Assembly (NCBI GenBank): GCA_002245135.1
Contig: NGBS01000012.1
Span: 1 to 64,000 of the forward strand
DNA length: 64,000 bases
Reading direction: 5' to 3'
Source: Proteromonas lacertae
Taxonomy: Eukaryota
Made by a program: the position numbers and the translations under genes. Positions 4,915 through 55,185 of this stretch are shown one piece after another (positions within the stretch are counted from its first letter, which is position 1; each line of letters starts with the position of its first letter). Under the pieces are notes generated by a model that saw nothing but the letters and a program-made list of their open reading frames with translations, was not told where the DNA came from and made no database searches.

Positions 4915-7900
4915 TTATAAATTGTCATTTACTTTTTTCAACATTTCTTCAAATTCTATCCTCTGAAATTCATCTTCAACACTGGATATGTATTTACTTG
5001 CTTCATTCAAATATTTCTTTGATTCTTCATAATCTTTCTATTTTCATTATAATCACATTCATATATATACAATATCAAAATAACATTCACCCATTTCATT
5101 ATTACATCTAAATCTCTCATAATCACTTTTAGCTAATTTTAATGCATTATTATATTGTTCTTTAGCTTCATCAATAGTACCTAGCTTAAATAAATACTTA
5201 CACACATATATATAATATAGGCATCTATCTTCATCTGATTCAGCAAAGTCAATTGCCGAAGTAATACAATTAAATGAGTTTTCATAATTATTCTATTATA
5301 AAACAATTGAAATATATACAAAGCCCAAATAACAATCACCTAAATTCATTAAACACATATATTTTTGTTTGTTTGTAGTTGCAAATCTTGATGCTATGTT
5401 ATAATGATCTAATGATTTTTCATACTCTTTCTATAACAAAAGTAAATCAGACACTACTATACAATATTAAAATAGCATAAACCAATATTTAAATTGCAAC
5501 TATAATTCTCTTCATCTGTTGATGCAAGATTTAATGCACATTCAAAATAATCTTTTGCTTTTTCATATTCCCTCTATAATAATAATAATAATTGTTTATA
5601 ATCATACAATCTTCAAATCACAAACACCTATTCTAAAGTTGCATAAGTAAATCTTTTCATTTGTGGAAGCAAAGTCTAAAGCAGATTCTAAATATTCAAT
5701 TGCTTTTTTAATTTCTCTCTATATTATCATTTATATCAAGTATAATACTGTTAGTTCATAAAAATTACTGATAGTGAAACAACATTCGTATTTTTCTTCA
5801 TTTTTAGAAGTGAATTGTAATGCAGACTCAAAATGTTCTAGTGAATTATTTAAATCACCCTATAATATGAATATTTTTATGGTTATACTAGATTGCCATA
5901 ACACAATGCTATATGGTTGTTATATAAATATTTCATTCTGTTAATATACTGCAAAGATTCTTCATCTAAAGGGTTAAGATGTTCTAATTCATAGAGATTC
6001 TCAAATGCAGTTTTAAAATATTTTATAGCTTGTTCATATTCTTCAACATTTGCACTGCACAAACCAATATTAAAGTAACAATCACATTTTTCTCTATTTG
6101 TAAATGCAAAAACTAATGCTGATTCAAAACGCTCTTTAGATTCTTTAAATTGATTCTATATATTCATTTATACACAAAATTTATACTAGATTTCGATAAC
6201 TTTCACCAATTTTGAATTTGCATTTAAATTTTTCATTATTTGTAGATGAATCATTTAGAGCAGTTACAAGGTATTCTATTGATCTTATATAATTCTTCTA
6301 TAAAGAAATAATAGATAATATATTTACTGAATTAAAACTTTCATATCCTCTTGTATAATTTTCAATGTATTTTTTTACTTTTGTAAATTTTTCAATATAT
6401 TCTTCATCTTCTATTGAGTATAAGAACTTGATTATTGAGTTGATTGTATCCAGGTTGTTATGATCAATTAAATCAATCAGTATATGTAAATCATTTAGAT
6501 ATATTTCTTTGTTCTTTTTCAATTCTACTGCATCATCTTCACCATATGGAGGATTTTCTTGATTTATTGAAGGAAATAACACCTATGATTTAAATAATAG
6601 AATATATTTATGTTTATATACAGTTGTTAATTCAATTTTCCAATACGATGAGAATTCTTTATTGCTCATTTTAATAATTTCATTCAATGTTTTACCTTCT
6701 ATAAAACCACCTCCTAAATAAAAATTCAGAATTTTAGAATCACAAAAAGAAGTATCTTCACTTGTTCCATTACTCACTGAAGTTGAAGGTAATGTTGAAT
6801 CATTATTAATATAAGCATTAACTTCTTTAAACATATCTTCAAATAATTTCTTATCATATGGATCTTCTACACCTGAAATATAAATATTTGCTTCATTCAA
6901 ATGTTTCTTGGATTCTTCATAATCTTTCTATTCTCATTATAATAATCATCATATTATATACAACATCAAAATAGCATTTACCCATTATATATTCACAACT
7001 AAATTTCTGATAATCAGTTTTGGCTAATTTTAATGCTTTCTTATATTGATCTATAGCTTGATTATTAATACCAAGTTTAAATAAACATTCACACATAAAC
7101 ATAGAACATATAAGTCTATCTTCATCAGATTCAGCAAATTCTAATCCTGAGATATAAAATCCCAAAGCTTCTTTATATTCTTTCTATAATTATTATAACT
7201 GCATAAATTATACAAGATTCATATTAATACAACCTAAGTTTATACTACATTTGTGTTTATTTTTTTTATTATTGCAAATTTTGACGCAGATTTATAATAC
7301 TCTATTGCTTTATCTAATTCATTCTATTGTATTATAAATAACAAATAATCATACTAGATCTGCATAACATACACCTATACCAAACACACAATTGAATTTT
7401 TCTTCATCTGATTCAGCAAATTTTAATGCATCATTCAAATGTTCAATTGATTTTATATTTTCTTTCTATAAATCAATTTATATCAACTATTATACTTTCG
7501 ATAAAAAATATCTACTTATATTAAGATAACATTCATATTTCTGTTTCTTTGTTGAGGAGAATTCTAATGCAGAATTAAAAGAATCAATTGCTCTGTCATA
7601 TTCAAGCTATAATATTAATTATATCATAATTATACTATTGCAGAATAACATTTACCTATAGTAGAATTACATTCATATTTATCTTCATTTGTTGAGGCAA
7701 ATTCTAAGGCAGAATTTAAATAGCCAAATGCTCTGTCATATTCAAGCTATAATATAAACAACTGTTAAAATCAATACTAAATATGTATAACACACACCAA
7801 GAGTGTAATTACTTTTGCATTTCTTGTCATTCATTTTAGATTTTGATGATTCTGTTAAACTACAATCATTTTCTAATAAAGATATATTATCTAATGTAGT

Positions 7901-9559
7901 TTTTAAAAAAGTAATTGACTGTCTGTATTCTTTCTATCACATTAAATAAATCATTAGTTATACAAGAGCAGCATAACATAAACCAATATAAAAGTTACAA
8001 TCACATTTTTCTTCTTTTGATGATGCAAAAACTAATGCAGATTCACAATGCTTTAATGATTCTCTGAAGTAATTCTATCACATAAAATTCTTAAGAAACA
8101 ATACAATTTCAAAATATGATTTACCTAGATTGTAATTACATTGGCGTAATTCTTCATCTGTATTAGCATTCTCTAAAGCAGATTTAAAACATTCTATTGC
8201 TTTTTCTATTTTTGCTATAAAATAAGATAAACATCCTATATACAGAATCAAAATATTTTGTAGCTTCTTTAAAATTTTCTTTGAATGTTTTTTCTTTTGC
8301 AAGTTTCTCCATATATTCTTTATCTTCTATTGAGTCTAAGAAGTTAATCATTGAGTTGAGTAGATCATCGTTGTTGTGATCAATTAAATCAATTAAGACA
8401 TGTAAATCATTTAGAAAATTGTCTTTATTCTTAATTAATTTTTTGGCGTCTTCTTTAGTATATGAAGGATTATCTTGACCTATTGAAGGAAAGAACATCT
8501 ATTATATAAATGTATTTATGTTTTTATACAAATTTAAATTCATCTTTCCAGTAGGATGAAAATTCTTCTTGTTTTATATCACAATATTCTGTCAATGTTT
8601 TACCTTCTATATTACCTTTTCCTAAATAAAACGATAAAATTAATGAATAATATGATGAAAAACTAGCTAATTCGTCTGAAGCTTCAGCTATTGATGGCGA
8701 AGAAAATGATGAATCACTTACAGAAGGAACAGGAGGAGTGTTTGATATTTTGTTTATTTCTTCTTCTATTTCATCAAGGTTTATTCTTTTATTCACATTT
8801 TTCTCTAACATTCGCTTTATTAATGCTTCTATTTGAGGAATTTTAACTCCACTTACTCTCGCAAAATCTAATTCTGTTCTTAAAAATAAATTATTTATTA
8901 TCTCCCTTTTGTTCTTTCCTTCAAAAGCAATTCTTAAGGTGTATATTTCAAACAAGATACAACCTAAAGCAAATATATCACTGGCTGTTGAATATGGAGG
9001 AGGTCTGGTTTGATATAATTCAGGAGCCATGTAACTATAAGTTCCTTTCAATACATCATCAGTACTATCAATTCCAGTTGCTAATCCAAAATCACTTATT
9101 ATTAATTCATTATGATCTCCTACTAAAATATTTCCTGGTTTTAAATCTCGATGGATTATTCCTTTACTATGAATATACTTTAAACCATTTATTAAATCTT
9201 TCATATACATCATCATTTCCTATATATCATTAATATATCATCATATATACATTTACTGAGAAATCTTCTTCTTTTTCAATCTTTTCATCTATCAGCTTCC
9301 ATAAATCACCATTTTTTAAATACTCTGTATATATATAACATTTATTTTCTTCTTCAATTATTACACTATCTTTTAGTATCAAGATATTTCGATCTCTCAA
9401 CTCTTCTAAAATCTTTATTTCATTTTTTATTGTCTCTAAATATCCTTTTTTTATTATAATCTCTTTTCTAGCTAGCTTTAAACCATTATGTCTTACTAAA
9501 CACACTTTGCTAAAACCACCTTCTCCAATTGTTTCATATTTTTCATCATTTATTTTCAT
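4915..9559 (-). CDS. Ser/Thr kinase (NEK-like) fused to two tandem [OGFr-like domain + 9 TPR-like repeats + capping helix] modules; 21 exons
   Basis: Intact kinase motifs GEGGFSKV, ARKE, HRDLKPGN, DFG, GTYSYMAPE, DIFALG. 20 phase-0 GT..AG introns of 27-39 nt traced by hand (e.g. 9220-9250, 8499-8529, 8075-8104, 6928-6961, 5038-5070). The frame runs from module 1 into module 2 within exon 6622-6927; stop at 4915-4917. Two exons are 1 nt short in A-runs. Confidence 0.85.
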
Positions 9560-9628
9560 TACGCTCTTAAATCAAATTGTTATTGTTATCAGCTAAAAAT
9601 TTAATTAAAAATTTTGATATTCAAACCT

Positions 9629-9649
9629 AAGAATCAAACCTGCATTATT
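9629..9649 (-). promoter_or_regulatory. Conserved upstream element AATAATGCAGGTTTGATTCTT (copy 1)
   Basis: Identical 21-mer at 12106-12126; lies about 70 nt upstream of ATG 9559. Confidence 0.55.
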
Positions 9650-9759
9650 TACTCATTCATAATTATATGTGGTAATATTTAGACACTGCTTGACAAATCA
9701 AAAAAATCATTATAAAGCAACAAAAAACATTGATAGAAGCAAAGAGAATAATTGTTTTT

Positions 9760-12069
9760 TTATTTATCATTCAATTTATTAAATATTTCTTCTAATTCTC
9801 TATTTAACTCTTCATTTACACTTGATTTATATTTATATGCTTCACATAAATACTTCTTGGCATTTTCTATATCATTCTATTTTCAAAATAATAATAATAA
9901 TCATTATAGTATATATACTCTTTCAAAAAGAAGTTTACCCAATTTATAACTACATATAAATCTTTCAACATCTGTATTAACTGATTCTATTGCTCTATTA
10001 TAATTATCTACTGCATCATCTATCATACCAATACTATACAAACAAGCACACATATACATATTGCATAAGCACTTATCCTCATTCAATTCTACATATTCTA
10101 ATGCTAAAAGTAGGTATTCCATAGATTTTTCAATATTATTCTATTATATTAACAATTCAAATAATCATACAAGTTTCAAATAACTTGCACCTAAGTAGAA
10201 ACAACATTCGTATTTTACTCTATTTAAGCATGGTAGTTCTAAAGCCCATTTGAAATGTTCTATTGATTTTTCATAATCTTCCTATTTAATTATATAACCA
10301 TTTAAAAACTTACAATATCATAATAACAATAACCTTTTTTATATTCAAATATAAAACACTCATCTTTTGTAAATATATCTTTCACTCGAGATGAAAAATT
10401 TTCTATTAATTGTTTATATTCTTTCTATTTATATATATATATATATTATTAAAAATGAATATATACTATTTTGTTGTTACATATATCAATATTTAATTCA
10501 CAATTCTGTCTTTCTTCACTTGTTGTACATTTTTCTAGTGTTGATTGTAAATATTTCATTGACATTTTATTTTCTCTCTATCATAATATTATTCATTATA
10601 TTATACAAGAAAGGAACAATAGTTAGACATAATAGCTGAATAATATGAAAGCATTTTTTGTTTCGTTGTTGCATACTTTAATCCTTCTTCTAAATATTCT
10701 GTTGATATATCATATTCTTTCTATTATAATGTCTATAATTATATGCATACTAGAACTGAATAGCAAATAGCTATATCATAATAACAAGAGCTTTTTTCTA
10801 TATCTACATAAGATACTTCCAATGCAGATTTAAAATAATCAATTGCTTTTATGTAGTCTTGCTATTAATTCATAAAGTCAAATATATATACAACACTTTC
10901 ATAGCATTTACCTAAATAGTAAATACATGAACATTTTTCTACATTTGTATATGCAAATTGTAAAGCAGTAGTCAAACATTCTATCGATTTTTCATTCTCT
11001 TTCTATTAAAAAAAAAGTATAAGTATTAATTACTATAATCATACAAGATTGTAATAACATCTTCCAATGTTAGAGTAGCAAAGACATTTATTTTCATTTA
11101 TATAGGCAGTTTGTAATGCAACTTGATAAAACTGTATAGATACTTCATATAATCCCTATTCAAAATAATAAACAACACTTATATATACCATTATTAAGTA
11201 ATTTTCACCAATACTAGTATTACATTCAAATCTTTCTACATCATCAGTTGCCAACTCTACAGCTTTAAGTAAAAATTCTATTGATACTTCACATTCACCC
11301 TATCAAATTGATAAATAAATGAATATAAAATACAAGATCCATATAACAAAAGCCAATTTTGCTACTACATTCATATTTTTCTTTATTTGTAGATGCATAT
11401 GTCAATCCACGATAAAAATACTCTAATGCTTTAGCATATTGCTTCTAATTGTATAATAGTAAAAAATAGATTTACTGTAGAGAAATAGTTATCTCCTGTA
11501 TTTATAAATGATTTACATGTTTCTTGATCTGTTTTGGTAATTAATATCTTAGTATTATCATTAGGTATTTCATTTACATCATATGAAGGTTTTAAATATT
11601 CCAATTCCCTAAAGATGTCTACTGGAGGTTGTTCATATTTTTCTATAGATCTTTTCACTTCAATCAGTTTTTCAACATATTCATTATCTTCTATAGACGA
11701 TAAGAAGTTTATCATTGAATTGACTACATCTTTGTTGTTTTTATCAATCAAGTCAATTAGTTTATGCAAATCATTTAAATATTTGTCCTTGTTATTCTTT
11801 AATTCTGCTACTTCTTCATTTGTATATGACGGTTCTACTTGGTTGATTGAGGGAAAGAATATCTATTGTATAAACAAATATAATAAATGATATACAAATA
11901 CAAAATCATTTTTCCAGAATGAAGAAAAAACTTCTGGCTTTATTTCAACAATCTCTTTTAAGGTTTTGCCTTCAATTACTCCATTTCTTAAATAAAAATT
12001 GAGTACTAAAGAATTATAGTTAAGAGAATAATTAGCTAGTTCACTAGATGCAACACAAGGTGGTAACAT
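9760..12069 (-). CDS. Kinase-less paralog: OGFr-like domain + 11 TPR-like repeats + capping helix; 13 exons
   Basis: ATG 12069 (MLPPCVASSELA..LNFYLRNGVIEGKTL). 12 phase-0 introns of 29-42 nt (11863-11895 through 9877-9918). Repeat exons are 111 nt, with one 114 and one 222 nt; the spliced frame is open to TAA 9760-9762. Confidence 0.87.
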
Positions 12070-12105: not shown

Positions 12106-12126
12106 AAGAATCAAACCTGCATTATT
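12106..12126 (-). promoter_or_regulatory. Conserved upstream element AATAATGCAGGTTTGATTCTT (copy 2)
   Basis: Identical to 9629-9649; about 37 nt upstream of ATG 12069. Confidence 0.55.
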
Positions 12127-19646: not shown

Positions 19647-22600
19647 AGTATAATGATATAATTCTTATATATAAATCATTATATACTTATTCTGCATAGT
19701 GTCCGCTACTACAATTGCTTGTAACAACACTATTCCAAGAATCAATGATACTCAAGGTAAGTTAGTATTAGCTGATGGTACAACTTTTCAAGGCAAATGC
19801 TTTGGTGCTAAGAAGCCTGTCACTGGTAGATTGGTTTTCAACACATGCTGCGTTGGCTTCCCAGAATTGATAACTGACCCTTCAGTAAAAGGTTTAATTG
19901 TTGTCTTCACCTATCCATCTGTAGGTGGATATGGTGTTCCAAAGACACAATTACGAGATGAATTGGAACTTCTTAAGTATTATCAATCAGAACATATCCA
20001 AGTAGAAGGTGTAATTTGTGAAGATTATAGCGATACATATAGTAATTTTGAAGCAGAAAAATCCTTAGGTGCTTGGTTAAAAGAGAATAATGTTCCTGGT
20101 TTATATGGTATAGATACAAGAATGTTAACCAAGAGAATAAGAGAAAATGGATCATGTGGTGCAAAGATTGAATTTGATGGAGAAACTATTCAAATTGTAG
20201 ATCCAGATAGTGTTGACTATGTAAGTCAAGTGTCAAGAAAAGATGAAAAAGTTTATAATAAAGGAAATAGTCCAAAATTGTGTGTTGTAGATTTAGGTTT
20301 AGATTATCAGACATTAAGATACTTAATTCAACAAAAATGTGAAGTTACTGTTGTTCCATTTAATTATGATATGAAATCAAATGCTTCAAAATATGATGGT
20401 TTCGTAATAAGTAGAGGTCCAGGAAATCCATTACTGTATAGTCCAATAGTTGAACAATTAAGATCATTGATCGAATTAAGTAAGCCAATCTTAGCTATGG
20501 GTTTAGGATACAATTTATTATGTTTAGCTGCTGGTGGTAAAGTAATTAAAATGAGATATGGTAATCATAGTACCAATTCCACTGCAATTGACTTAAGAAC
20601 CACTAAGTGTTATGTTATCCATCAAGATCATGATTATGTAATAGATGAAGAGTCCTTACCTTCAGAATGGATCCCATTATTAATGAATGCAACTGATCAT
20701 AGTAATGAAGGTTTTGTACATGTCACAAAGCCATTTATTGGAGTATCTTTTCTACCAGATGCTAATCATGTTACTAATAATACAAGTTATATATATGATT
20801 TATTCTTCCATAATGTCAATGAACATACATTACCTATTACTACAGTACCAAAAGCTACTTATGATAAACCAAAACCACAGAAAGTATTGTTATTAGGTTC
20901 GGGAGGTTTGTCTATTGGTCAAGCTGGTGAGTTTGATTATTCAGGTAGTCAAGCAATCAAAGCTTTAAAAGAAGAAAGTATTGAAGTAATATTAGTTAAT
21001 CCAAATATCGCTACAGTTCAAACATCAAAAGGAATGGCTTCAAGAGTATATTTCTTACCAGTTACAAAGTATTATGTAACAAGAATCATAGAGAAAGAAA
21101 GACCTGATAGTATATTAATCTCAATGGGAGGACAGACAGCATTAAATGTTGGTTTAGAGTTATATGATTCAGGAATATTATCCAAATATGGTGTTAGAAT
21201 ATTAGGAACACCTGCAGAAACAGTAAGAGAAACTGAAGATAGAGAATTATTTGCAACTAAAGTCACTGAAATTGGTGAAAAGATTATAGAAAGTTGTTCA
21301 GCTAAATCAATGGAAGAAGCAATAGCCGGTGCTGAAAGAATTGGTTATCCTGTATTAGTTAGAGCTGGATTTGCTTTAGGAGGATTAGGTTCAGGATTTG
21401 CTAAGAATAGAGAGCAATTTGTTGAATTAGCTAAAAGAGCATTTTCAGTATCCTCTGATGTATTTATTGATAAAGATTTAAGAGGATGGAAAGAAATAGA
21501 ATATGAAGTGGTCAGAGATGGTCATGATAATTGTTTAACTATCTGTTCAATGGAGAATTTCGATGCATTAGGTATTCATACTGGTGATTCTATTGTTATT
21601 GCTCCAACACAATCATTAAATAATCATGAAGCTGGTATGTTACGTGATGCTGCTATTAAAGTTGTTAGACATATTGGTATAGTAGGTGAATGTAATATTC
21701 AATTTGCATTAGATCCATATAGTGATAATTATTATATTATTGAAGTGAATGCTAGATTATCAAGATCATCTGCTTTGGCATCTAAAGCTACTGGTTATCC
21801 ATTAGCATATGTAGCTGCAAAGATTTGTTTAGGTGTTGATTTGATTAATATAAAGAATAGTATTACTAGATTCACTTCAGCTTGTTTTGAACCATCTGTT
21901 GATTATATTGTATGTAAATTCCCAAGATGGGATTTGAATAAATTCAACAAAGTATCCAATAAGTTAGGATCTTCAATGAAATCAGTAGGTGAAGTCATGT
22001 CTATTGGTAGAAAATTCGAAGAAGTTATTCAAAAAGCAATTCGTATGATTAATCCTAAAAGAAATGGTTTTGAAGCTGATGGTGCTACAAAATATACTAA
22101 AGAGGAATTAGATAATATATTAGAATATCCAGATCATATGAGAATCTATTGTATTGCTGAAGCATTTAATAGAGGTTATACTGTCCAACAAGTATATGAT
22201 TTAACAAAGATAAATGAATGGTTCTTATATAAATTAAAGAATATTCATGACTGTAGAATGTCATTGAAAGGAAAGAATTTATCAACATTAAGCGAAGAAA
22301 TAATAAGATCCTTAAAATGTGATGGTTTTAGTGATATTCAAATCGCTTCTTATGTAAATACCACAGCGAATGAAGTAAGAGCAAAAAGATTATCAATGAA
22401 TATTCATCCTTATGTAAAACAAGTAGATACAATGGGTGGTGAAGTAAAAGCCTATGAGAATTACTTGTATATGACTTACAATGGTTCTGAACATGATATA
22501 AAATTCGATGATCATGGTGTAATGGTATTAGGATGTGGACCTTATTCAATTGGATCATCTGTAGAATTTGATTGGGCAGCAGTAAATTGTATTCGTACTT

Positions 22601-24117
22601 TACGAAGTGCTAAAATCAATACAATCGTAGTAAATTGTAATCCAGAAACAGTTTCAACTGATTATGATGAATCTGATAAATTATATTTTGAAGAATTAAC
22701 ATTAGAAAGATTATTAGATATTTATAATTTAGAAAGTTCATCTGGAATAATCGTATCTGTTGGTGGACAAATACCAAACAATTTATCAAAACCATTATAT
22801 GATAATGGTTGTGTGATTTATGGTACAAAACCAGAACAGATTGATCGTGCTGAAGATCGATCTGTATTTAGTGCTATGTGTGATTCATTACATATTGATC
22901 AACCATCTTGGAGTGCATTAACATCAACTCAATCTGCAATAGATTTTGCTAAGAGTGTTGGATATCCAGTAATTGTTAGACCTAGTTTTGTATTATCAGG
23001 TGCAGCTATGTCTGTAGCTCATAATGAAGATCAATTAAGTCAATTCTTAGATAAAGCAATAGATTTTTCAAACAATAATGCATCAGTTGTAATATCTAAA
23101 TATGTACAAGATGCTCGAGAGATTGAATTTGATGGTGTTGCTAAGAATGGTCAGATATATGTATATGCGATAAGTGAACATATTGAAAATGCAGGTGTTC
23201 ATTCAGGAGATGCATCTGTTATGTTACCAGCTCAAAAATTATATGTCAAAACAGTATTTGAAGTTAGAAGAATTGCATCTGCAATAGCGAAAGATTTAAA
23301 AATTACTGGTCCATTTAATATTCAATTATTAGCTACTGATAATGAAGTGAAAGTGATAGAATGTAACTTACGAGCTTCTCGAACATTCCCATTCATATCT
23401 AAAACCTTTGATTTTAACTTTATTGACTTAGCAACAAAGTTAATGGTTGGTTTACCAGCAAAATTACCAAATTTCCATTTAAAAGATATTCAATATATAG
23501 CAATCAAAGTTCCAATGTTTTCATTTACTCGATTGATAGGTGCTGATCCAACATTAAGTGTAGAAATGGCTTCAACAGGTGAAGTAGCCTGTTTTGGTGA
23601 AACAGTTCATCATGCTTTATTAAAATCATTAATAGCTTCTGGTTTTAAGATTCCTCCAAGTGGATCAAATATATTAATATCTGTAGGAACATTGAAACAA
23701 AAGATAGCATTTTTAGAATCATGTCGAGCTTTAGTAAAGATGGGATACAATGTATATTGTACAAAAAGAACTTATGATGTTTATAAAGAACATAATATAG
23801 ATGTGAAATATATATCTAAACCAAGTAGTGATGAAAAACCAAATGCAAAAGATTTAATATGTGATGGTAAGATCTCTTTAGTTTATGTTGATCCTCAAAA
23901 AGACAGTGAAGCTGAAATAACTGATGGTTATATAATCCGAAGAACAACTGTAGATTTTGGAATTCCTTTATTAACAAATAATAAGATGGCAGTTGCTTTT
24001 GTATTAGCTTTACAAAAATTGAATGAAGTAGGTTGGGATAAATTCTTTGGTATAAAATCGATGGATGAATATTATGAAATGGCTTCAGTAGAGATAGATG
24101 GTCCTAACTCAATATAA
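19647..24117 (+). CDS. Carbamoyl-phosphate synthetase, fused small+large subunit with C-terminal MGS-like domain; glutaminase site degenerate
   Basis: LYGIDTRMLTKRIR, LGSGGLSIGQAGEFDYSGSQA, GIHTGDS, EVNARLSRSSALASKATGYPLA, GVHSGDA, IECNLRASR. No DHO or ATC fusion. ATG formed across intron 19648-19699. Confidence 0.96.
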
Positions 24118-32718: not shown

Positions 32719-35700
32719 ATGTCGTCAGATCTTAGTATATAACACACAGAATACTAATATATAGGGTCAACGATTGGTAGAATCAGTAGAAGTTCAAGGC
32801 AATCAAGAACTTCATTTGGAGATTATGCAGGCCAGATGAAAATGGCTACTGATAAAGCCATCTATATTCGTAAAAGTCAAGCCGGATTACAGCCTGTAAA
32901 ACCAGAAGAGATAAGATCAGCAAAATCAACAACTGATGCTAGTAAAAGAAAAAAGAAGGATGTAAAGAAAGACAACACTGAAGATCTTAAGAAGGAATTG
33001 GATATGACAGAACATCTAGAAGATATCCAAACTTTATTGGATAATTACCACTCAAATGCTGAAACAGTATATTTAACCTAATCTCTGATATAATAGGGTA
33101 TGACAGAAAGTGATTATGAAACAGCCAAGGAAAGATATGGCTTAAACAAGATGAAACCACCTCCAACCACTCCAGAGTGGTTAAAATTCATCAAGGAAAT
33201 CACCAAAGGATTCTCATTATTATTATGGGCTGGTGGTATCCTTAGTTTCATTTCTTATGCATTACAAGGAAATAGTTCTGATTTATACTTAGGTATTGTT
33301 TTATGTTGTGTAGTTTTATTAACTGGTGTGTTTCTCATACTGGCAAGATAGAAAATCAGGTGCTTTGATGGATAGTTTCAAGCAATTAATGGCTGATACT
33401 TGTACAGTTATAAGAGGTGGTAAAACCTTTGTAGCAGCAGCAGAATCATTAGTTCCTGGTGATATTATATTAATGAAAGGTGGTGAAAAAGTACCTGCTG
33501 ATGTAAGAATAATTGAATGTAGTGATGATATGCAAGTTGATAATGCTTGTTTAACTGGTGAATCTGAACCATGTAAAAGATCACCCGAATCAAAACATGA
33601 GAATCCTCTTGAAGCTGATAATTTAGCATTCTTTGGAACACAAATTCCAAAAGGTAGAGCAACTGGAGTAGTGATAAAGACAGGTGATAATACAGTAATG
33701 GGAAGAATAGCCAAATTAGCAGTAGCAACAGAAACTGAAGAAACACCAATCTCCAGAGAATTAGGTCATTTTATTAAAATGATTAGTTGTATAGCTCTTA
33801 TACTAGGAATTGCAATATTTATTATTGGATTTATCATTGGTACTCAATGGCTTCAAAATTTTGTATTTATGATTGGTATTATTGTTGCTAATGTTCCTGA
33901 AGGATTATTAGCAACAGTTACTGTTGCACTGACATTAACTGCTAATAGAATGTACTTAGAGAATGTATTGGTGAAGAATTTAGAAGGTGTAGAAACATTA
34001 GGATCAACTACGTGTATTTGTAGTGATAAAACTGGAACATTAACTCAAAACATAATGACAGTGACAAATGTTATGTATAACTGTGAAATTAAGAATTGTG
34101 AATGTTCATTATATGATGCTAAATTATTTGATGTTGACAAGAACAATAATTGTTTTAAGAAGTTAATGAGATGTGCTTGTATATGTAATAAAGCTAAATG
34201 GGATGAAAATAGTAAAGTTGAATGTGATCAAGATGGAAAACCAATATTAAAAGATGGTAAAGAAATACCAATTCCATTCATGAAGCAAGTGAGAGTTGGT
34301 AATATCGTAGATCATGTAGTACAATGGAAACCAATAGGAGATGCTAGTGAAAATGCATTGATTAAATATGTTCAAGGATTTTCTGGTATAACTGATGATA
34401 TTGATACATTTAGAAAAGATTTCCCTATTATTAAAGAAATTCCATTCAATTCAACTAATAAATATCAAGTAGCAATAACAAAACAAACCGGCAAGCCAAA
34501 TCATTTAATAACAATGAAAGGAGCTCCTGAAAGAATCTTAGGTCGATGTAATAAATATTATGACAATGATGGAAATCTTCAAGATTTAACAAAAGAAGTT
34601 TTACACAAGATTGAAGAAAACCAAATCGAATTGAGTAAGCGAGGATTAAGAGTATTAGGATTTGCTGAATTAGAATTAGATGCCAATGAATATCCTGAAG
34701 ATTATCCATACAAATCTGATAGACCAAACTTCCCATTAGGTGAATGTTGGAAAGAAGGAGAAGAACCAAATTCACAACAATTTGATCCACAACATGTTAG
34801 AAAACCATTAAACTTCATAGGAATGACTGCTATGATTGATCCTCCAAGACCACAAGTGCCTGGAGCTGTTATGAAATGTCAGACTGCTGGAATTAGAGTA
34901 ATAATGGTAACTGGTGATCATCCTATTACTGCTAAAGCTATTGCAAAGAAAGTTGGAATAATTTGGAGTGAAACTGAAGATGAATTAGTAGAAATCAATA
35001 AGAAGAATGGATTTTATGATGAAAAGAATCCGAAAGAAAGAACTGCTGAAAATGGTTATAGAGAACCTGCCTTAGCTGATGCAATCGTAGTTCCTGGAAA
35101 TGAATTTGGAGTTGATACACCTGATGAAGTATGGGATGATATTTTGAGTCATTCTCAAGTTGTATTTGCTCGAACAAGTCCTCAACAGAAGTTATTGATA
35201 GTAGAAAACTGTCAAAAACGAGAAGAAATTGTAGCTGTAACTGGTGATGGAGTAAATGATGCTCCAGCGTTAAGAAAAGCTGATATAGGAATTGCGATGG
35301 GTATAATGGGAAGTGCCGTAAGTAAAGATGCTGCTGATATGATTCTGTTAGATGATAATTTCGCTTCGATTGTTCAAGGAGTAGAAGAAGGTAGAATGAT
35401 ATTTGACAATTTGAAAAAACCAATTATATATACACTATCATCAAACATACCAGAATTAATACCATTTGTATCATTCATAGTCTTAGGATTACCATTACCA
35501 TTAGATACAATAACGATATTATGTATTGATTTAGGTACAGATATGGTTCCAGCAATTGCTTTTGCTTGGGAAAAGGCAGAAAGTGATATAATGAAAAGAC
35601 CACCAAGATATGCCAAAGAAGATCGATTAGTTACAGGTAAATTGTTAATGTTCGGTTATCTACAAATGGGTGTGTTTCAAACATGTGCTGCAATGTTAAC

Positions 35701-36862
35701 ATATTTCTATGTAATGAGTGATTATGGTTATCCTGCTGATATATTACCAAGATCTGGTGCTAGTTATAACTGGGGATATCAGACAATGTATTGTTCATTC
35801 CATAATGGTGTATTTAAGAATATTAATGGTGAAGAATATCCTAAAATGAATCAGATTAAGTTTGATCAAGGTAGTGCAACTGTTGAAGCAATTCATCAAG
35901 CTTTTAATGATGGATATTGGTTCTATGATGCTGACAATTATAGAGGAAGTATTGAAAAGTGTTTATATGCTGCTAGGAACTTTGATAGTAGTAGCACTAA
36001 ACCAGAAGGCTATGAAAGATTCTATAATGTTAGTAATTTTGGTAATGGTGAAAAAACAATCTCAGATATGTCAATCCAAGCATTATACAACCGTGGAATG
36101 GTTGAATATATTCCTTATAAATCCGTACAATCTGTATTTTGGGATAATCGATGGTTATCTTGGGATGTTGAAAAAGATGGTGCAAAAGTTTTGGGTAAAG
36201 TCGAAAATGCCCCAGGTGATACAATATTCTATTTATATCAACCATATGGTGTGTACCAGATATTATCTAAAGATCAGAATGGTGAAAATGCTGTTTTAAT
36301 GAAAGATAACTATGAAGGTATTACTTTCAACGGATTAGCTGTAAATGAGAAGAAATGTTTCACCAATGCAACATTAGTTACTGGAGATCCTTCTATTGCT
36401 GATAATATTTATCAATTCCCTTACAATACTGTTCGTAAGAATGGTAAATTCTATATAAATGTCGCTTCTCGTATGTGTCAAGCTGAGGTTTTATCGCATG
36501 CACAATGTGCTTACTTCGTTTCGGTTGTCGTTGTTCAATGGAGTAATGCTTTATCAATTAGAACTAGAATAAACAGTATGTATCAACAAGGAATGAATAA
36601 TTCTGTCTTAATCTTCGGTTTTATCTTTGAAACATGGTTAGCTATGATGTTGTGTTATGTTCCACCATTTTGTACTGCTTTTGGTACAAGACCTTTGAGA
36701 ATTACTCACTGGTGTTGCGCTATGGTATGGATGATGTTCATGATCGTTTATGATGAAGTGAGAAAATATTTGATGAGAAGATTTAGCCATGTTTATGAAG
36801 ATAAACAAACTCACCAAATATTTAGAGAGCCATGTTGGTTAGAAAGAAATACCTTCTGGTAA
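32719..36862 (+). CDS. P2C Na+/K+-type P-ATPase alpha subunit, copy 1
   Basis: LTGESE, IIVANVPEGLL, CSDKTGTLT, MKGAPE, MVTGDHP, TGDGVND, ILCIDLGTD. Introns about 32735-32764 and 33067-33096; +1 frameshift near 33331. Confidence 0.95.
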
Positions 36863-37045: not shown

Positions 37046-40000
37046 ATGCAACTTGGAAGAGAGTCAAGAAATTCAAGGACTAGTAGAACCTCTTTAACAG
37101 TTAGTTATGCTGGTCAGGTGAAAAGTAGCCAAGATGAAGCAGTTGAGTTTAGAAGAAGTCTGCATAATGCAAACAACATGATAGTATCACAAAATGAAAT
37201 TAAACATCCAGAGGTTAAAAAAGGTAAGAAGGCCAATAAATCCAAAAAAGATACAACTGCTGATTTGAAAAAGGAATTAGTGATGCATGAGCATATGGAA
37301 GACTTAACCAATTTATTGGATAGATTAAAAACAAATGTAGAGACAGGAATGGAACAACCTGCATATGAAGATGCTATAAAAAGATATGGACCAAATAAAA
37401 TGACTCCACCACCAACAACACCTGAATGGGTGAAATTCTTAAAAGAAATTACCACTGGTTTTTCATTATTGTTATGGGCAGGTGGTATTCTTTGTTTTAT
37501 TTCATTTGGAATTCAAAGAGGAATGAGTGATGTATATTTATATAAATATATATCATTAATTTATATTTCACTAGTTATACTTAGGTATTGTATTATGTGC
37601 AGTTGTATTAATTAGTGGTACATTTTCTTATTGTCAAGAAAGACAATCCAGTCAGTTGATGGATAGTTTCAAGCAATTAATGGCTGATCAAGCTACAGTC
37701 ATTAGAGGAGGTAAAACTATTACAGCTCCAGCAGAATCATTAGTTCCTGGTGATATTATATTAATGAAAGGTGGTGAAAAAGTGCCAGCGGATATTAGAA
37801 TAATTGAATGTAGTGATGATATGCAAGTTGATAATGCTTGTTTAACTGGTGAATCTGAACCATGTAAAAGATCAACTGATTTTCATAATGAAAACCCATT
37901 AGAAGCTGATAATTTAGCATTCTTTGGAACACAAATTCCAAAAGGTAGAGCAACTGGTGTTGTTGTTAAAACTGGTGATAATACAGTAATGGGAAGAATA
38001 GCCAAATTAGCAGTAGCAACAGAAACTGAAGAAACACCAATCTCCAGAGAATTATCTCACTTTATTATCATAATATCAAGTGTAGCTGTTGCATTTGGTG
38101 TTGTTTTCTTCATCATTGGTGTTATTATTGGAACTCCAGTTATTCAATCTTTAGTGTTTATGATTGGTATTATTGTTGCTAATGTTCCTGAAGGATTGTT
38201 GGTTACTGTGACAGTATGTTTGACATTAACTGCTAATAGAATGTACTTAGAGAATGTATTGGTGAAGAATTTAGAAGGTGTAGAAACATTAGGATCAACT
38301 ACGTGTATTTGTAGTGATAAAACTGGAACATTAACTCAGAATATGATGACAGTAGCAAACTTGATGTTTGATTCAAAGATATTTGATTGTGAATGTTCAT
38401 TATATGATAAAAGTGATGTTACAATGGATAGTCCATGTTTTAAGAAATTAATGAGATGTGCTTGTATATGTAATAAAGCTAAATGGGATGAAAATAGTAA
38501 AGTTGCTAAAGATAAAGAAGGTAAAGAAACTCCAGTTCCATTTCTTAAAGAAGTTCATTTAGGACAAGTTGTTGAAAAAAAAGTACAGTGGAAACCAATA
38601 GGAGATGCTAGTGAAAATGCATTGATTAAATATGTTCAAGGATTTTCTGGTATAACTGATGATATTGATACATTCAGAAAAGATTTCCCTATTATTAAAG
38701 AAATTCCATTCAATTCAACTAATAAATATCAAGTAGCAATAACAAAACAAACCGGCAAGCCAAATCATTTAATAACAATGAAAGGAGCTCCTGAAAGAAT
38801 CTTAGGTCGATGTAATAAATATTATGACAATGATGGAAATCTTCAAGATTTAACAAAAGAAGTTTTACACAAGATTGAAGAAAACCAAATCGAATTGAGT
38901 AAGCGAGGATTAAGAGTATTAGGATTTGCTGAATTAGAATTACCAGCAACAAAAGAAGAAGCTGAAGCAATGAATTTAAAACACGAATATCAAGAAGATT
39001 ATCCTTATGACACTTCTGCTCCAAATTTCCCATTAGGTGAAAAAGACAAGCCTCAAACATTTAAAGAAGAATCTGAATGTCCATTAAACTTTATAGGAAT
39101 GACTGCTATGATTGATCCTCCAAGACCACAAGTGCCTGGAGCTGTACAAAAGTGTAAAACTGCTGGAATTAGAGTAATAATGGTAACTGGTGATCATCCT
39201 ATTACTGCTAAAGCTATTGCAAAGAAAGTTGGAATAATTTGGAGTGAAACTGAAGATGAATTAGTAGAAATCAATAAGAAGAATGGATTTTATGATGAAA
39301 AGAATCCGAAAGAAAGAACTGCTGAAAATGGTTATAGAGAACCTGCCTTAGCTGATGCAATCGTAGTTCCTGGAAATGAATTTGGAGTTGATACACCTGA
39401 TGAAGTATGGGATGATATTTTGAGTCATTCTCAAGTTGTATTTGCTCGAACAAGTCCTCAACAGAAGTTATTGATAGTAGAAAACTGTCAAAAACGAGAA
39501 GAAATTGTAGCTGTAACTGGTGATGGAGTAAATGATGCTCCAGCGTTAAGAAAAGCTGATATAGGAATTGCGATGGGTATAATGGGAAGTGCCGTAAGTA
39601 AAGATGCTGCTGATATGATTCTGTTAGATGATAATTTCGCTTCGATTGTTCAAGGAGTAGAAGAAGGTAGATTGATCTTCGATAACTTAAAGAAATCTAT
39701 TGTTTATACTTTAACTTCCAATATTCCAGAGTTAGGTCCTTTCTTATGTTATATTACTATTGGTATTCCATTACCACTAGATACAATAACAATATTATGT
39801 ATTGATTTAGGTACAGATATGGTTCCAGCAATTGCTTTTGCTTGGGAAGAAGCAGAAAGTGATATAATGAAAAGACCACCAAGATATGCCAAAGAAGATC
39901 GATTAGTGACTAAGAAATTGATATTTATGGGTTATTGTGAGATTGGTGTATATCAATGTGTTTGTGCATTATTGACATATATTATTGTTATGGATGATTA

Positions 40001-41135
40001 TGGTTTTCCAGCAAAGATATTACCAAGAGCTGGTTCTAATGATAATTGGGGAAAACAAACGTTATATTGTTCATTTACTGGTGGTGTATTTAAGAATATT
40101 AATGGTGAAGAATATCCTAAAATGGATCAGATTAAGTTTGATCAAGGTAATGCAACTGTTGAAGCAATTCATCAAGCTTTTCAAGATGGTTATTGGTTTT
40201 ATGATCCAGGTTTTAGTCAAAAGCATCTTGAGAAATGTTTATTTGCTGCTAGAAACTTTGAAAGTAGTGGTACTAAACAAGATGGATATGAAAGATTCTT
40301 CAATGTTGGTAGTTATGGTGATAAGGAATTATTAGTTACAGATTTAGCAGTAGAAGGACTTTATGAACAAGGAATGGTTGAATATATTCCTTATAGATCA
40401 GTACATTCAGTATTTTGGGATAATAATTGGTTAAAATGGAATCCTGAGGATGGTGCTGCTGATGGAATGGGTTCTGGACCAGCAGATTCAATTACCTATC
40501 TTTACCAACCAAATGGATTATATCAAGTATTATCCAAAACTCAAAGTGGTAAAGATGCAATAGGAATGAGAGGTTCTGAAGATTTTGTTACTTATCATGG
40601 TGATACTGAAGGAATAAATCCAAAGAAATGTTTTAATAATGCGACATTGGTACAAGGTAATTCAGAAGTAGAAGGTTATCAATTCCCATATAATACAATC
40701 TTTGAAAAAGGTAGTAAAAAGAATAGAATTAATATTGCATCAAGAATGTGTCAAAGAGAAGCATTATCCCATGCTCAATGTGCTTACTTCGTGTCTGTTG
40801 TTATGGTCCAATGGGGAACTAATTTAATTTCTAAAACAAGATTGAATAGTTTATACAACCAAGGAATGAAAAATTATGCTATGAATTTTGGTTTTATCTT
40901 TGAAACTTGGTTAGCTATGATGTTGTGTTATGTTCCACCATTTTGTACTGCTTTTGGTACAAGACCTTTGAGAATTACTCACTGGTGCTGTGCTTTCCCT
41001 TGGTTTATTGGGTTAGTTTGTCTAGATGAATGCAGAAAATACATTATGAGAAAGAAAGTTGTTATGTATGCAGATAAAGCAACAAAGCAAGTGTTTAGAG
41101 AACCGTGCTGGTTAGAAAGAAATACATACTATTAA
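37046..41135 (+). CDS. P2C Na+/K+-type P-ATPase alpha subunit, copy 2 (start may lie further upstream)
   Basis: Same P2C motifs; KKSIVYTLTSNIPE; C-terminal RNTYY; intron 37532-37573. Intron-like segments upstream of 37046 make the exact start uncertain. Confidence 0.95.
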
Positions 41136-53212: not shown

Positions 53213-53464
53213 AAAGATTTTGATTATCTTTTTATTGCATTTTTTTCGTTTATTGATAATGTTTTTATTTAGTGTTTGTAGTTATTACTATTATTATTTG
53301 TATTTTTCATTTTTTGGTTTATGAAAATTTTCGTAAAATCACAATTATTTAAAATCGTTTTATCTCATTTTTGATTTTATTTTTATAAATTTAATATATT
53401 AATTTACTCTATTTTTATATGATAATTGCTATTACATATATATAAGTACACAACGTTCTGATTT

Positions 53465-55185
53465 ATGTCAACAACAGCTCAAAACCAGAAATATGTGAAG
53501 TATATGAACGAATGTAATGAAATAATAAGAATGATGGATATGAAAACTACAAAATTTTATAAAAATCATTTCATGACAAATATTGTATTTAGTAGCATTA
53601 GTGAAGTAAAGAAGGTGAAAATATTTAAATTAATTTTAGATAAAATTGAAAAATTGATTTATTTTGGATTAACAACATTTAACATCGAAATGCAAAACGT
53701 TTTTATTGACGATAAAGGTAACATATCTTTAAATGATATATTCTCATATATTACTAAAAGAAACAATATTATAACTTTTGATATAAACAAATTTGTACTT
53801 ACATTTGATATAAAAGAATTGAAAAGTAATCAAAGTATAACAATAGAGGAGTTGGTTATTCTTCTTAAGCAAAATGAAATTATAGATGTAAAAGAAGAAT
53901 TAGATAATATATCGATATTAAATAAATTATTTAAAGTAAATGCAAATGATTATTATTACACAAAATATCATTTTCTACAGAATAAAAAATCAATTATTAA
54001 ATATGAAAGAATGAATGATAATAATTATATGTATTTTGATTCTGGTATGTTTTATATATATATATATATATTACTATAGACTCTTTGGGTAATTATGGTT
54101 TGGAATTAATATGTGATGAGTTAGAAAAATATGATAATATTACAGGATTGATATTAGATAATAATGAAATTAATGATGAAGGAATGAAATATTTAAGTTT
54201 AGGTTTACAATATTTACCAAACTTACAAACACTTACATTAACGCAAAACAACATATCAGATAATGGTATGATAATATTTAGTAATAATTTATATCATGTT
54301 CCATTTTTAAAAGATTTGACAATCTCAGAGAATAAAATAAGTGATAAAGGAATAATTGCTTTTAGTAAGAATCTACGTCGTGTAAAGCACTTTAATATAA
54401 TATATATGAATGATAATAAAATAGGTAATATGGGATTTACTTCATTTTGTAATAATTTAAAATGTATTCCCAACTTGAATGATTTAGAGGTGAGTAAGAA
54501 TATAATAAGTGATGATGGAATTATGTCATTAGTTTATAATATTCATTCCATACCTAGATTAGAATCATTATATATTGATGATAATAGAATTGGTGATTGT
54601 AGTTTTATACCATTATTTAATTCATTTTACTCTACAATTACTTATTTGATTGATCTTAATCTGAATTGTATAAATATATTCTATTTCTATAATTGAATAG
54701 CAAATTATCTATCAGATAAAGGAATGATTTGTTTAAGTGATAATTTAAAGTATATTACTAATTTGCAGAGATTGTATATTTCTCATAATAAAATCACAGA
54801 TATTGGTGTTATAAATTTGTGTAAGAATATTTCATATATAAAAGAATTAAATACTTTGTCTTTATCAGAGAATAATTTATCAGATAAATCAGTAATAAAG
54901 CTTAGCATGAGTTTTAAATATATGTCAAAACTGTTTGTATTGGATTTAAGTAGCATTAATATGGGAGATGATGGTATAATTGAGATAAGTAAAAATCTAT
55001 ATCATTTACCACGATTGGATTGTTTAGATGTAAGTAATAACATGATTACTAATGTTGGAATGAATAGACTCGTAAAAGAGATACATACAGGTAGTAGATT
55101 GGATAGAATTGTGGTTTATGACAATGAAATAGAAAACATCAATTCATATAAAAGTGAACATATAATTGTTAATTATAACGAATAA
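53465..55185 (+). CDS. Leucine-rich repeat protein (RI-like 28-aa repeats)
   Basis: Repeated LxxLxLxxNxIxDxG with 28-aa period; introns about 54045-54079 and 54668-54700. Confidence 0.88.

What the first reader, a model, noticed from the sequence alone, without database searches (positions are those of the whole stretch)
4915..12069. Candidate variable-receptor system: kinase-[OGFr-like/TPR]x2 gene paired with a kinase-less paralog
Seen: manual splicing recovers two adjacent co-oriented genes built from one module, an OGFr-like domain plus a Cys/Tyr-rich 37-aa TPR-like array plus a cap. One gene has an intact Ser/Thr kinase and two modules of 9 repeats each; the other has one module of 11 repeats and no kinase. 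The three modules are strongly diverged in the repeats but keep the same exon scaffold. The locus sits between housekeeping genes VPS13 and WDR35. Established: exon-per-repeat TPR/LRR genes with signalling domains have been proposed as immune-like receptors in the brown alga Ectocarpus. Inference: a sensor/effector or receptor/decoy pair with a diversifying binding surface. I do not recognise this architecture from known proteins.
Basis: partly seen in the sequence, partly recalled or inferred. Interest (0 to 1): 0.85.

Follow-up and report, generated by a model that had tools for sequence, protein, structure and literature searches.

The report
Exon-cassette TPR kinase and kinase-less twin
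A single-celled eukaryote carries two neighbouring genes that build protein-binding repeats one exon at a time behind a worn-down 'OGFr-like' domain, one with a kinase (broken by two single-base gaps as assembled) and one without; they likely belong to a fast-changing family of intracellular sensors, with an immune role untested.

Summary
The structure is real. Gene A (633 aa, 13 exons) is intact. Gene B (21 exons) has a kinase with all catalytic motifs and two modules. All 32 introns are phase-0 GT-AG; the modules hold 11, 9 and 9 repeats of 37 aa. The module domain D is probably a degenerate OGFr_N relative (profile probability 42%, E 2.6e-4, above 150 of 150 shuffles) but lacks the family's invariant residues and has no Pfam hit. 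Each exon encodes helix B of one TPR plus helix A of the next. Groove positions vary most, and modules gained repeats by independent exon duplications; positive selection is borderline. Unnamed Logan proteins show a family: same exon boundary, and kinase-D-X-D with another repeat. Both genes share an identical 21-nt upstream element. Best reading: a birth-and-death family of cytosolic kinase-repeat sensors, resembling brown-algal NB-ARC-TPR and Giardia Nek/Protein 21.1 genes. Pairing and immune function are not shown.

The parts
9760..12069 (-). Gene A: short linker + D + 44-aa insert + 11 repeats + cap; 13 exons, 633 aa, open frame
4915..9559 (-). Gene B: kinase + [D + 9 repeats + cap] x2; 21 exons; two 1-nt deficits as assembled
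8767..9559 (-). Ser/Thr kinase domain (exons 1-2): Gly loop, beta3 Lys, alphaC Glu, HRD, DFG, APE all present
   Evidence: Pfam Pkinase E 1.8e-11 and 4.9e-35; motifs
11638..12003 (-). D domain of gene A (degenerate OGFr_N-like, about 110 aa, one phase-0 intron)
8274..8637 (-). D domain 1 of gene B
6358..6729 (-). D domain 2 of gene B
9919..11444 (-). Repeat array of gene A: nine one-repeat exons and one two-repeat exon
6962..8214 (-). Repeat array B1 (9 repeats; r4/r5 a module-specific exon duplication; r1 and r7 one base short)
5071..6297 (-). Repeat array B2 (9 repeats; r5/r6 a module-specific duplication; r2 and r3 in one exon)
9760..9876 (-). Cap exon of gene A (last helix B plus capping helix)
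6820..6927 (-). Cap of module B1, continuing into linker and D2
4915..5037 (-). Cap exon of module B2 and stop
8209..8214 (-). Break 1: 1-nt deficit in the first three codons of exon 4, at a run of 5 A
7240..7295 (-). Break 2: 1-nt deficit within exon 10 (codons 10-27; an 8-A run at 7260-7267 lies inside)
12106..12126 (-). 21-nt element 36 nt upstream of the ATG of gene A, identical to the one before gene B
9629..9649 (-). 21-nt element 69 nt upstream of the ATG of gene B

Best explanation
Two tandem paralogues are built from one module (domain D plus a TPR array encoded one repeat per phase-0 exon) and likely belong to a lineage-specific, fast-turnover family of cytosolic kinase-repeat sensors, in which the variable TPR groove would bind protein or peptide ligands and D, a probably non-catalytic OGFr-like domain, would couple binding to the kinase. 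Shown: gene structure, kinase motifs, no hydrophobic signal or membrane segment, TPR register, groove variability, exon duplications, family members elsewhere, a shared upstream element, two breaks in gene B as assembled. Inferred: gene A arose from a B-like gene by loss of the kinase and is co-expressed with B as an added sensor or decoy; the phase-0 cassettes let repeats be gained, lost or skipped in frame; the breaks are either assembly errors or inactivated exons or copies, as birth-and-death families have. That the ligands are foreign (viral or bacterial) I put at about 0.3.
For: 32 of 32 introns phase 0 against 28 of 59 elsewhere. Pfam register puts exon residue 32 at TPR position 9, so exon columns 25, 28, 29, 32, 35, 36 are the groove positions 2, 5, 6, 9, 12, 13 named in PMC1261162; they include the five most variable of 37 columns. 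Tree of 29 repeats: terminal repeats group by position (98, 98), r2 (96); B1 r4/r5 (99) and B2 r5/r6 (88) are within-module duplicates. Profile search of 1.84 billion representatives gave 11 hits; 9 are D relatives, all those looked up from Logan only, 2 are unrelated. P0121 and P0122 carry a Val (the GT donor read through) at the same offset as B exons 3 and 13; P0125 continues into a 37-aa repeat. Intronless P0131 bridges the D intron exactly. P0136 is kinase-D-X-D, its kinase 49% identical to B: D recurs in front of different repeat types. Identical 21-mer before both ATGs (chance 0.01) although synonymous sites of A and B differ at about 55%. A's N-terminus aligns with B's post-kinase linker. 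Maximum 19-residue hydropathy 1.06 and 1.58.
Against: Gene B is frameshifted twice as assembled, with no canonical rescue of break 1. Groove hypervariability holds for TPRs in general (PMC1261162). pN/pS is 0.89 over all B1-B2 repeats and 0.80 for D in B1 versus B2, and synonymous sites are near saturation (pS 0.45 over all repeat pairs), so relaxed constraint fits as well as diversifying selection. The four close pairs were picked by identity. No inactivated repeat exons lie in the introns or elsewhere in the window, so no cassette reservoir is seen. With introns of about 31 nt, exon skipping needs introns far longer than any parsed here (longest 59 nt). Family size within this genome is unknown.
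Confidence: 0.5

Rival explanations
1. Housekeeping-type targeting: the TPR arrays dock a divergent kinase to fixed cellular partners (for example cytoskeleton), as proposed for ankyrin repeats of Giardia Neks, and gene A is a scaffold like Protein 21.1; no foreign ligand is involved.
For: Same architecture logic (kinase plus variable repeats, kinase-less siblings, pseudogenes) in Giardia, where deleting an ankyrin repeat changed localisation (PMC3218828, passages). Selection signal here is not clearly above 1.
Against: Independent exon duplications in each module and only 22% identity at groove positions between the two modules of one gene fit fixed partners less well.
Confidence: 0.25
2. Decaying duplicates: gene B is a pseudogene (or yields only a 420-437 aa kinase-D product) and repeat divergence reflects relaxed selection; only gene A may still work.
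For: Two 1-nt deficits in one module; 9 of 16 other regions need no frameshift; pN/pS near 1.
Against: All kinase motifs, 20 of 20 splice-site pairs and the upstream 21-mer are intact, with no nonsense codon in about 4 kb; both deficits can be placed at A runs, a common long-read error (general knowledge). Seven of 16 control regions did give frameshift calls, so the control is weak.
Confidence: 0.15
3. D is a working nucleotide or ADP-ribose sensing domain, and the proteins read ADP-ribosylation marks.
For: D resembles OGFr_N; one bacterial OGFr_N gene lies beside an ADP-ribosylglycohydrolase (1 of 3 neighbour proteins scanned).
Against: The invariant H, Q, W and H-N-x-x-R-x-x-R residues of 11 OGFr_N sequences are absent from 6 of 6 full D copies; OGFr_N itself has no established biochemistry (PMC11062026, passages).
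Confidence: 0.1

Closest known systems
[quoted passage not shown]
   Same: One TPR per exon, signalling domain plus variable repeat array, clusters, frameshifted copies and inactivated exons.
   Different: No NB-ARC or ROC-COR domain; Ser/Thr kinase and D instead; 37-aa exons cut in the A-B hairpin rather than 42-aa exons; introns of about 31 nt with no relic exons; whole module duplicated inside one gene.
Giardia Nek-ankyrin kinases and kinase-less Protein 21.1 (PMC3218828)
   Same: N-terminal kinase followed by a variable repeat array, kinase-less paralogues, rapid turnover, no membrane segment.
   Different: TPR not ankyrin; exon-per-repeat structure; intervening D domain; kinase subfamily here not assigned (MAPK13, PLK2 and GRK2 tie at 75-77 bits).
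OGFr_N domain (Pfam PF04664; OGFR, OGFRL1, bacterial and phage homologues)
   Same: N-terminal 60 columns align in order, with the F-P motif.
   Different: About 110 aa rather than about 150; invariant polar residues lost; no Pfam hit; repeated as a module behind a kinase.
Plant paired NLR sensor/helper genes and kinase-fused receptors (recalled, no call)
   Same: Adjacent paralogues, one with and one without a signalling domain.
   Different: No NB-ARC domain; genes are tandem, not head-to-head; pairing untested.

Membership tests
TPR | Match to TPR profile with small/hydrophobic scaffold pattern | tested here: met
   TPR_1 E 5e-5 to 2e-3 on 3 of 4 two-repeat exons (0.18 on the fourth), all below the curated cut-off; G, Y, A scaffold columns in register
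TPR | Canonical 34-aa period | tested here: not met
   Period is 37 aa in 26 of 29 repeats (two of them counted with an X), 38 in one, 52 in two
TPR | Superhelical fold of the array | not testable with these tools
   No spliced full-length protein exists in the collections to fold
Eukaryotic Ser/Thr kinase | Pkinase match and catalytic K, E, HRD, DFG, APE | tested here: met
OGFr_N (PF04664) | Pfam score over the cut-off | tested here: not met
   No hit on window exons nor on intronless P0129, P0131, P0136
OGFr_N (PF04664) | Remote profile homology | tested here: inconclusive
   hhalign probability 42%, E 2.6e-4, 62 columns; 0 of 150 block shuffles and 0 of 19 WDR35 decoys reach the score
OGFr_N (PF04664) | Invariant H-x-x-x-Q-W-x-F-P and H-N-x-x-R-x-x-R | tested here: not met
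   Only F-P kept in 6 of 6 full D copies
OGFr_N (PF04664) | Same fold | tested here: inconclusive
   Model pLDDT 58; best Z 4.3, rmsd 4.5, 82 aligned
Brown-algal NB-ARC-TPR | NB-ARC domain | tested here: not met
   No such Pfam hit in the 9 locus frames scanned; the parsed proteins consist of kinase, D, repeats and caps
Brown-algal NB-ARC-TPR | Same-phase, equal-length repeat exons | tested here: met
Brown-algal NB-ARC-TPR | Exon gain and loss between paralogues | tested here: met
   9, 9 and 11 repeats; within-module duplicates with support 99 and 88
Brown-algal NB-ARC-TPR | Diversifying selection on the binding face | tested here: inconclusive
   Groove pN/pooled pS 1.21 (0.93-1.6) and 1.64 (1.01-2.71); saturation
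Brown-algal NB-ARC-TPR | Alternative splicing of repeat exons | not testable with these tools
   needs transcripts
Giardia Nek/Protein 21.1 | Ankyrin repeats | tested here: not met
   Repeats hit TPR models, none ankyrin
Giardia Nek/Protein 21.1 | Nek-family kinase | not tested
   No kinase tree built; PDB hits do not single out a family

The most novel reading that the evidence does not exclude
A new class of intracellular immune receptor kinases in short-intron protists: a pseudo-enzyme derived from the OGFr domain serves as a plug-in coupler that joins a kinase to interchangeable sensor blocks (exon-cassette TPR arrays here, a different repeat X in relatives), with co-regulated kinase-less twins acting as sensors or decoys through D-D contact, and with 110-nt exons as switched-off cassettes.
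Probability: 0.2. Interest if true: 0.88.

Novelty: new variant of a known kind. Interest (0 to 1): 0.62.

Why it matters
Exon-per-repeat candidate receptors were described in brown algae; how unicellular protists sense viruses or bacteria is largely open. An independent version with a kinase output, in a genome with 30-nt introns, would be a convergent design and easy to test: small genes, defined groove positions, a shared upstream element. D would also be a second life of the OGFr domain, whose function is unknown even in humans, and a handle for finding the whole family.

Tried and rejected
No whole genome is held, so copy number in this genome was not tested. Five window frames looked up in seven forms: 0 of 7 in the collection. 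Word-index searches: A1 among longer proteins, 0 of 7992 candidates; A5, 4 of 3419, all already known. Contig scans for D: 0 of 592 metagenome and 0 of 312 viral candidates; the kinase exon gave 30 generic kinases, none reaching D. Single-sequence fold of P0136 failed (pLDDT 33). The D model gave no Foldseek viral hit at E 0.001 and no Z of 5 or more in the PDB; weak model, no conclusion. D profile against PDB sequences: 3 hits, E 0.14 or worse. NCBIfam and PHROGs name neither D nor X. ESM Atlas: no usable hit for A exon 2; the second query did not complete. Rejected: the 21-mer as first exon plus donor (the donor would be GTT, all 32 introns start GTA; by eye no acceptor restores the frame); GC-donor or repeat-truncating rescues of the breaks. 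The figure 0.017 for both breaks falling in B counts only regions without frameshift calls and is not relied on.

Full report
Setting. The window is an AT-rich eukaryotic sequence (GC 22-36% per kb) with introns of 25-59 nt. The locus lies on the minus strand between the end of VPS13 and WDR35. WDR35 has unnamed relatives at 97% and 82% and named ones at about 50%. Short introns and low GC resemble what PMC12129017 reports for Blastocystis (passages), while WDR35 points to a flagellated cell; I did not fix the lineage. No whole genome is held.

Gene structure. A splice parser gave gene A from ATG 12069 to stop 9760: 13 exons, 633 aa, no break. Gene B runs from ATG 9559 to stop 4915 in 21 exons. 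All 32 of 32 introns begin GTA, end TAG, are 27-42 nt and phase 0; 28 of 59 are phase 0 in a rough parse of 16 other regions. Each module is D (about 110 aa, one intron), repeats (11, 9, 9) and a cap. Intronless protein P0131 aligns across the D intron without a gap, which confirms that junction independently. The kinase has Gly loop, Lys, alphaC Glu, HRD, DFG and APE. Neither protein has a hydrophobic leader or membrane segment.

The breaks. Exons 4 and 10 of B are 110 nt where all sister exons are 111. As assembled, translation stops after residue 420, or 437 if intron 3 is kept. Break 1 has no GT-AG rescue (10 of 10 options need GC donors); break 2 has 2 rescues, both removing part of the repeat. 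Skipping both exons keeps a 1267-aa frame. Both deficits can be placed in A runs (5 and 8 bases). Control: 9 of 16 other regions needed no frameshift, 4 had one call near my hand-set start, 3 had unresolved internal calls. So error and real decay both stay open. In Ectocarpus, shortened and inactivated TPR exons and frameshifted copies are part of the family picture (PMC3341825, passages).

The repeats. Pfam TPR_1 matches below cut-off and fixes the register: exon residue 32 is TPR position 9. Each exon therefore holds helix B of one TPR and helix A of the next; the D exon supplies the first helix A and the cap the last helix B. Columns 25, 28, 29, 32, 35, 36 equal TPR positions 2, 5, 6, 9, 12, 13, the peptide-binding positions in PMC1261162 (passages). 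They include the five most variable of 37 columns, and their mean entropy ranks 2 of 100,947 sets among non-scaffold columns (I had seen the entropies before applying the set). That paper shows the same for TPRs at large, so this marks a binding groove, not an arms race. B1 against B2: D 60% identical, repeats 40%, groove 22%, scaffold 53%. Groove pN over pooled pS is 1.21 (0.93-1.6); in four pairs chosen for at least 70% nucleotide identity it is 1.64 (1.01-2.71); pS is close to saturation. A tree of 29 repeat exons groups the two terminal repeats and r2 by position, but B1 r4/r5 (99) and B2 r5/r6 (88) are within-module duplicates; most deep nodes are unsupported. Nine repeats were thus reached twice by separate exon gains and losses. 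No further repeat lies elsewhere in the window.

Domain D. Pfam gives no OGFr_N hit. I collected 11 OGFr-related sequences (5 of 5 scanned pass Pfam's cut-off). Profile comparison gives probability 42%, E 2.6e-4 over 62 columns; 0 of 150 block shuffles (max 22 against 30) and 0 of 19 WDR35 decoys (max 16) reach it; the three Logan copies alone give 20%. With the first, smaller alignments it was 13% over 96 columns. The family's invariant H, Q, W and H-N-x-x-R-x-x-R are missing in 6 of 6 full copies. D is probably a shortened, degenerate OGFr_N relative, not a member by the family's own features. OGFRL1 function is described as largely unknown (PMC11062026, passages). One bacterial homologue lies beside an ADP-ribosylglycohydrolase (1 of 3 neighbours scanned), which agrees with unchecked earlier notes.

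Family. A profile of the three D half-exons against 1.84 billion representatives gave 11 hits; 9 are relatives, all from Logan, and 2 (a fungal F-box protein, a PAS protein) are chance. P0121 and P0122 show Val at the same offset as the donor after B exons 3 and 13; P0123, P0124 and P0126 within four residues; P0125 reads on through a 37-aa repeat. P0136 is kinase-D-X-D and P0131 kinase-D-X-X, where X is an unnamed repeat of about 90 aa and the kinases are 49% and 44% identical to B. D thus stands in front of at least two kinds of repeat. Whether these come from one or several species is unknown.

Link between A and B. An identical 21-mer lies 36 and 69 nt before the two ATGs; these are the only 2 matches in the window at up to 3 mismatches (chance 0.01), while synonymous sites in D differ at about 55%. 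A begins with a remnant of B's post-kinase linker. I infer that A is a B-like copy that lost the kinase and kept a shared control element. This supports co-regulation, not binding.

Mechanism and comparison. Most likely (0.5): cytosolic kinase-repeat sensors of a birth-and-death family; the groove would bind ligand, D would relay it, A would add or compete. It works like brown-algal NB-ARC-TPR genes in gene design (PMC3341825, PMC11378527, passages) and like Giardia Nek-ankyrin and Protein 21.1 in domain logic (PMC3218828, passages), and is a member of neither. Rivals: fixed-partner targeting (0.25), decay (0.15), ADP-ribose reader (0.1).

Literature. Searches listed no paper on a kinase-OGFr-TPR protein; passages of PMC12129017 and PMC5608401 mention none, though the latter reports a subtype-specific expansion of 58 kinases. 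I read passages only and no supplements; domain tables in those supplements, and subscription papers, may bear on novelty. The comparison with plant paired receptors and the remark on long-read homopolymer errors are recalled.

Verdict. Observation partly confirmed, interpretation partly supported. New variant of a known kind; interest 0.62.

Noticed in passing
window 33323-36862 and 37575-41135 (+): Two tandem P-type ATPase genes that look like Na/K-ATPase alpha subunits (label recalled), with long identical central stretches, suggesting recent gene conversion.
   Followed up: no
window 53462-55185 (+): LRR-type gene with three short introns, all phase 1 in my parse.
   Followed up: no
window 19675-24117 (+): Fused carbamoyl-phosphate synthetase; best hits in a prokaryote-only collection are mostly Bacteroidota at 52-60%. 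No eukaryotic comparison made, so no transfer claim.
   Followed up: partly
P0131, P0136, P0129: Repeat X, about 90 aa with a W-W-C end, follows D in kinase-D-X proteins; no Pfam, NCBIfam or PHROG name.
   Followed up: partly
L111:327-2262 (-): Bacterial OGFr_N gene directly upstream of an ADP-ribosylglycohydrolase gene.
   Followed up: partly
L114, L117, L118: Jumbo phages of Xanthomonas and Stenotrophomonas carry OGFr_N-like proteins annotated as hypothetical; 2 of 2 scanned pass the Pfam cut-off.
   Followed up: partly
window 5889-6155 and 7778-7933 (-): Third repeat of both B modules carries a 15-residue insertion between its helices; in B2 the intron before it is missing.
   Followed up: partly
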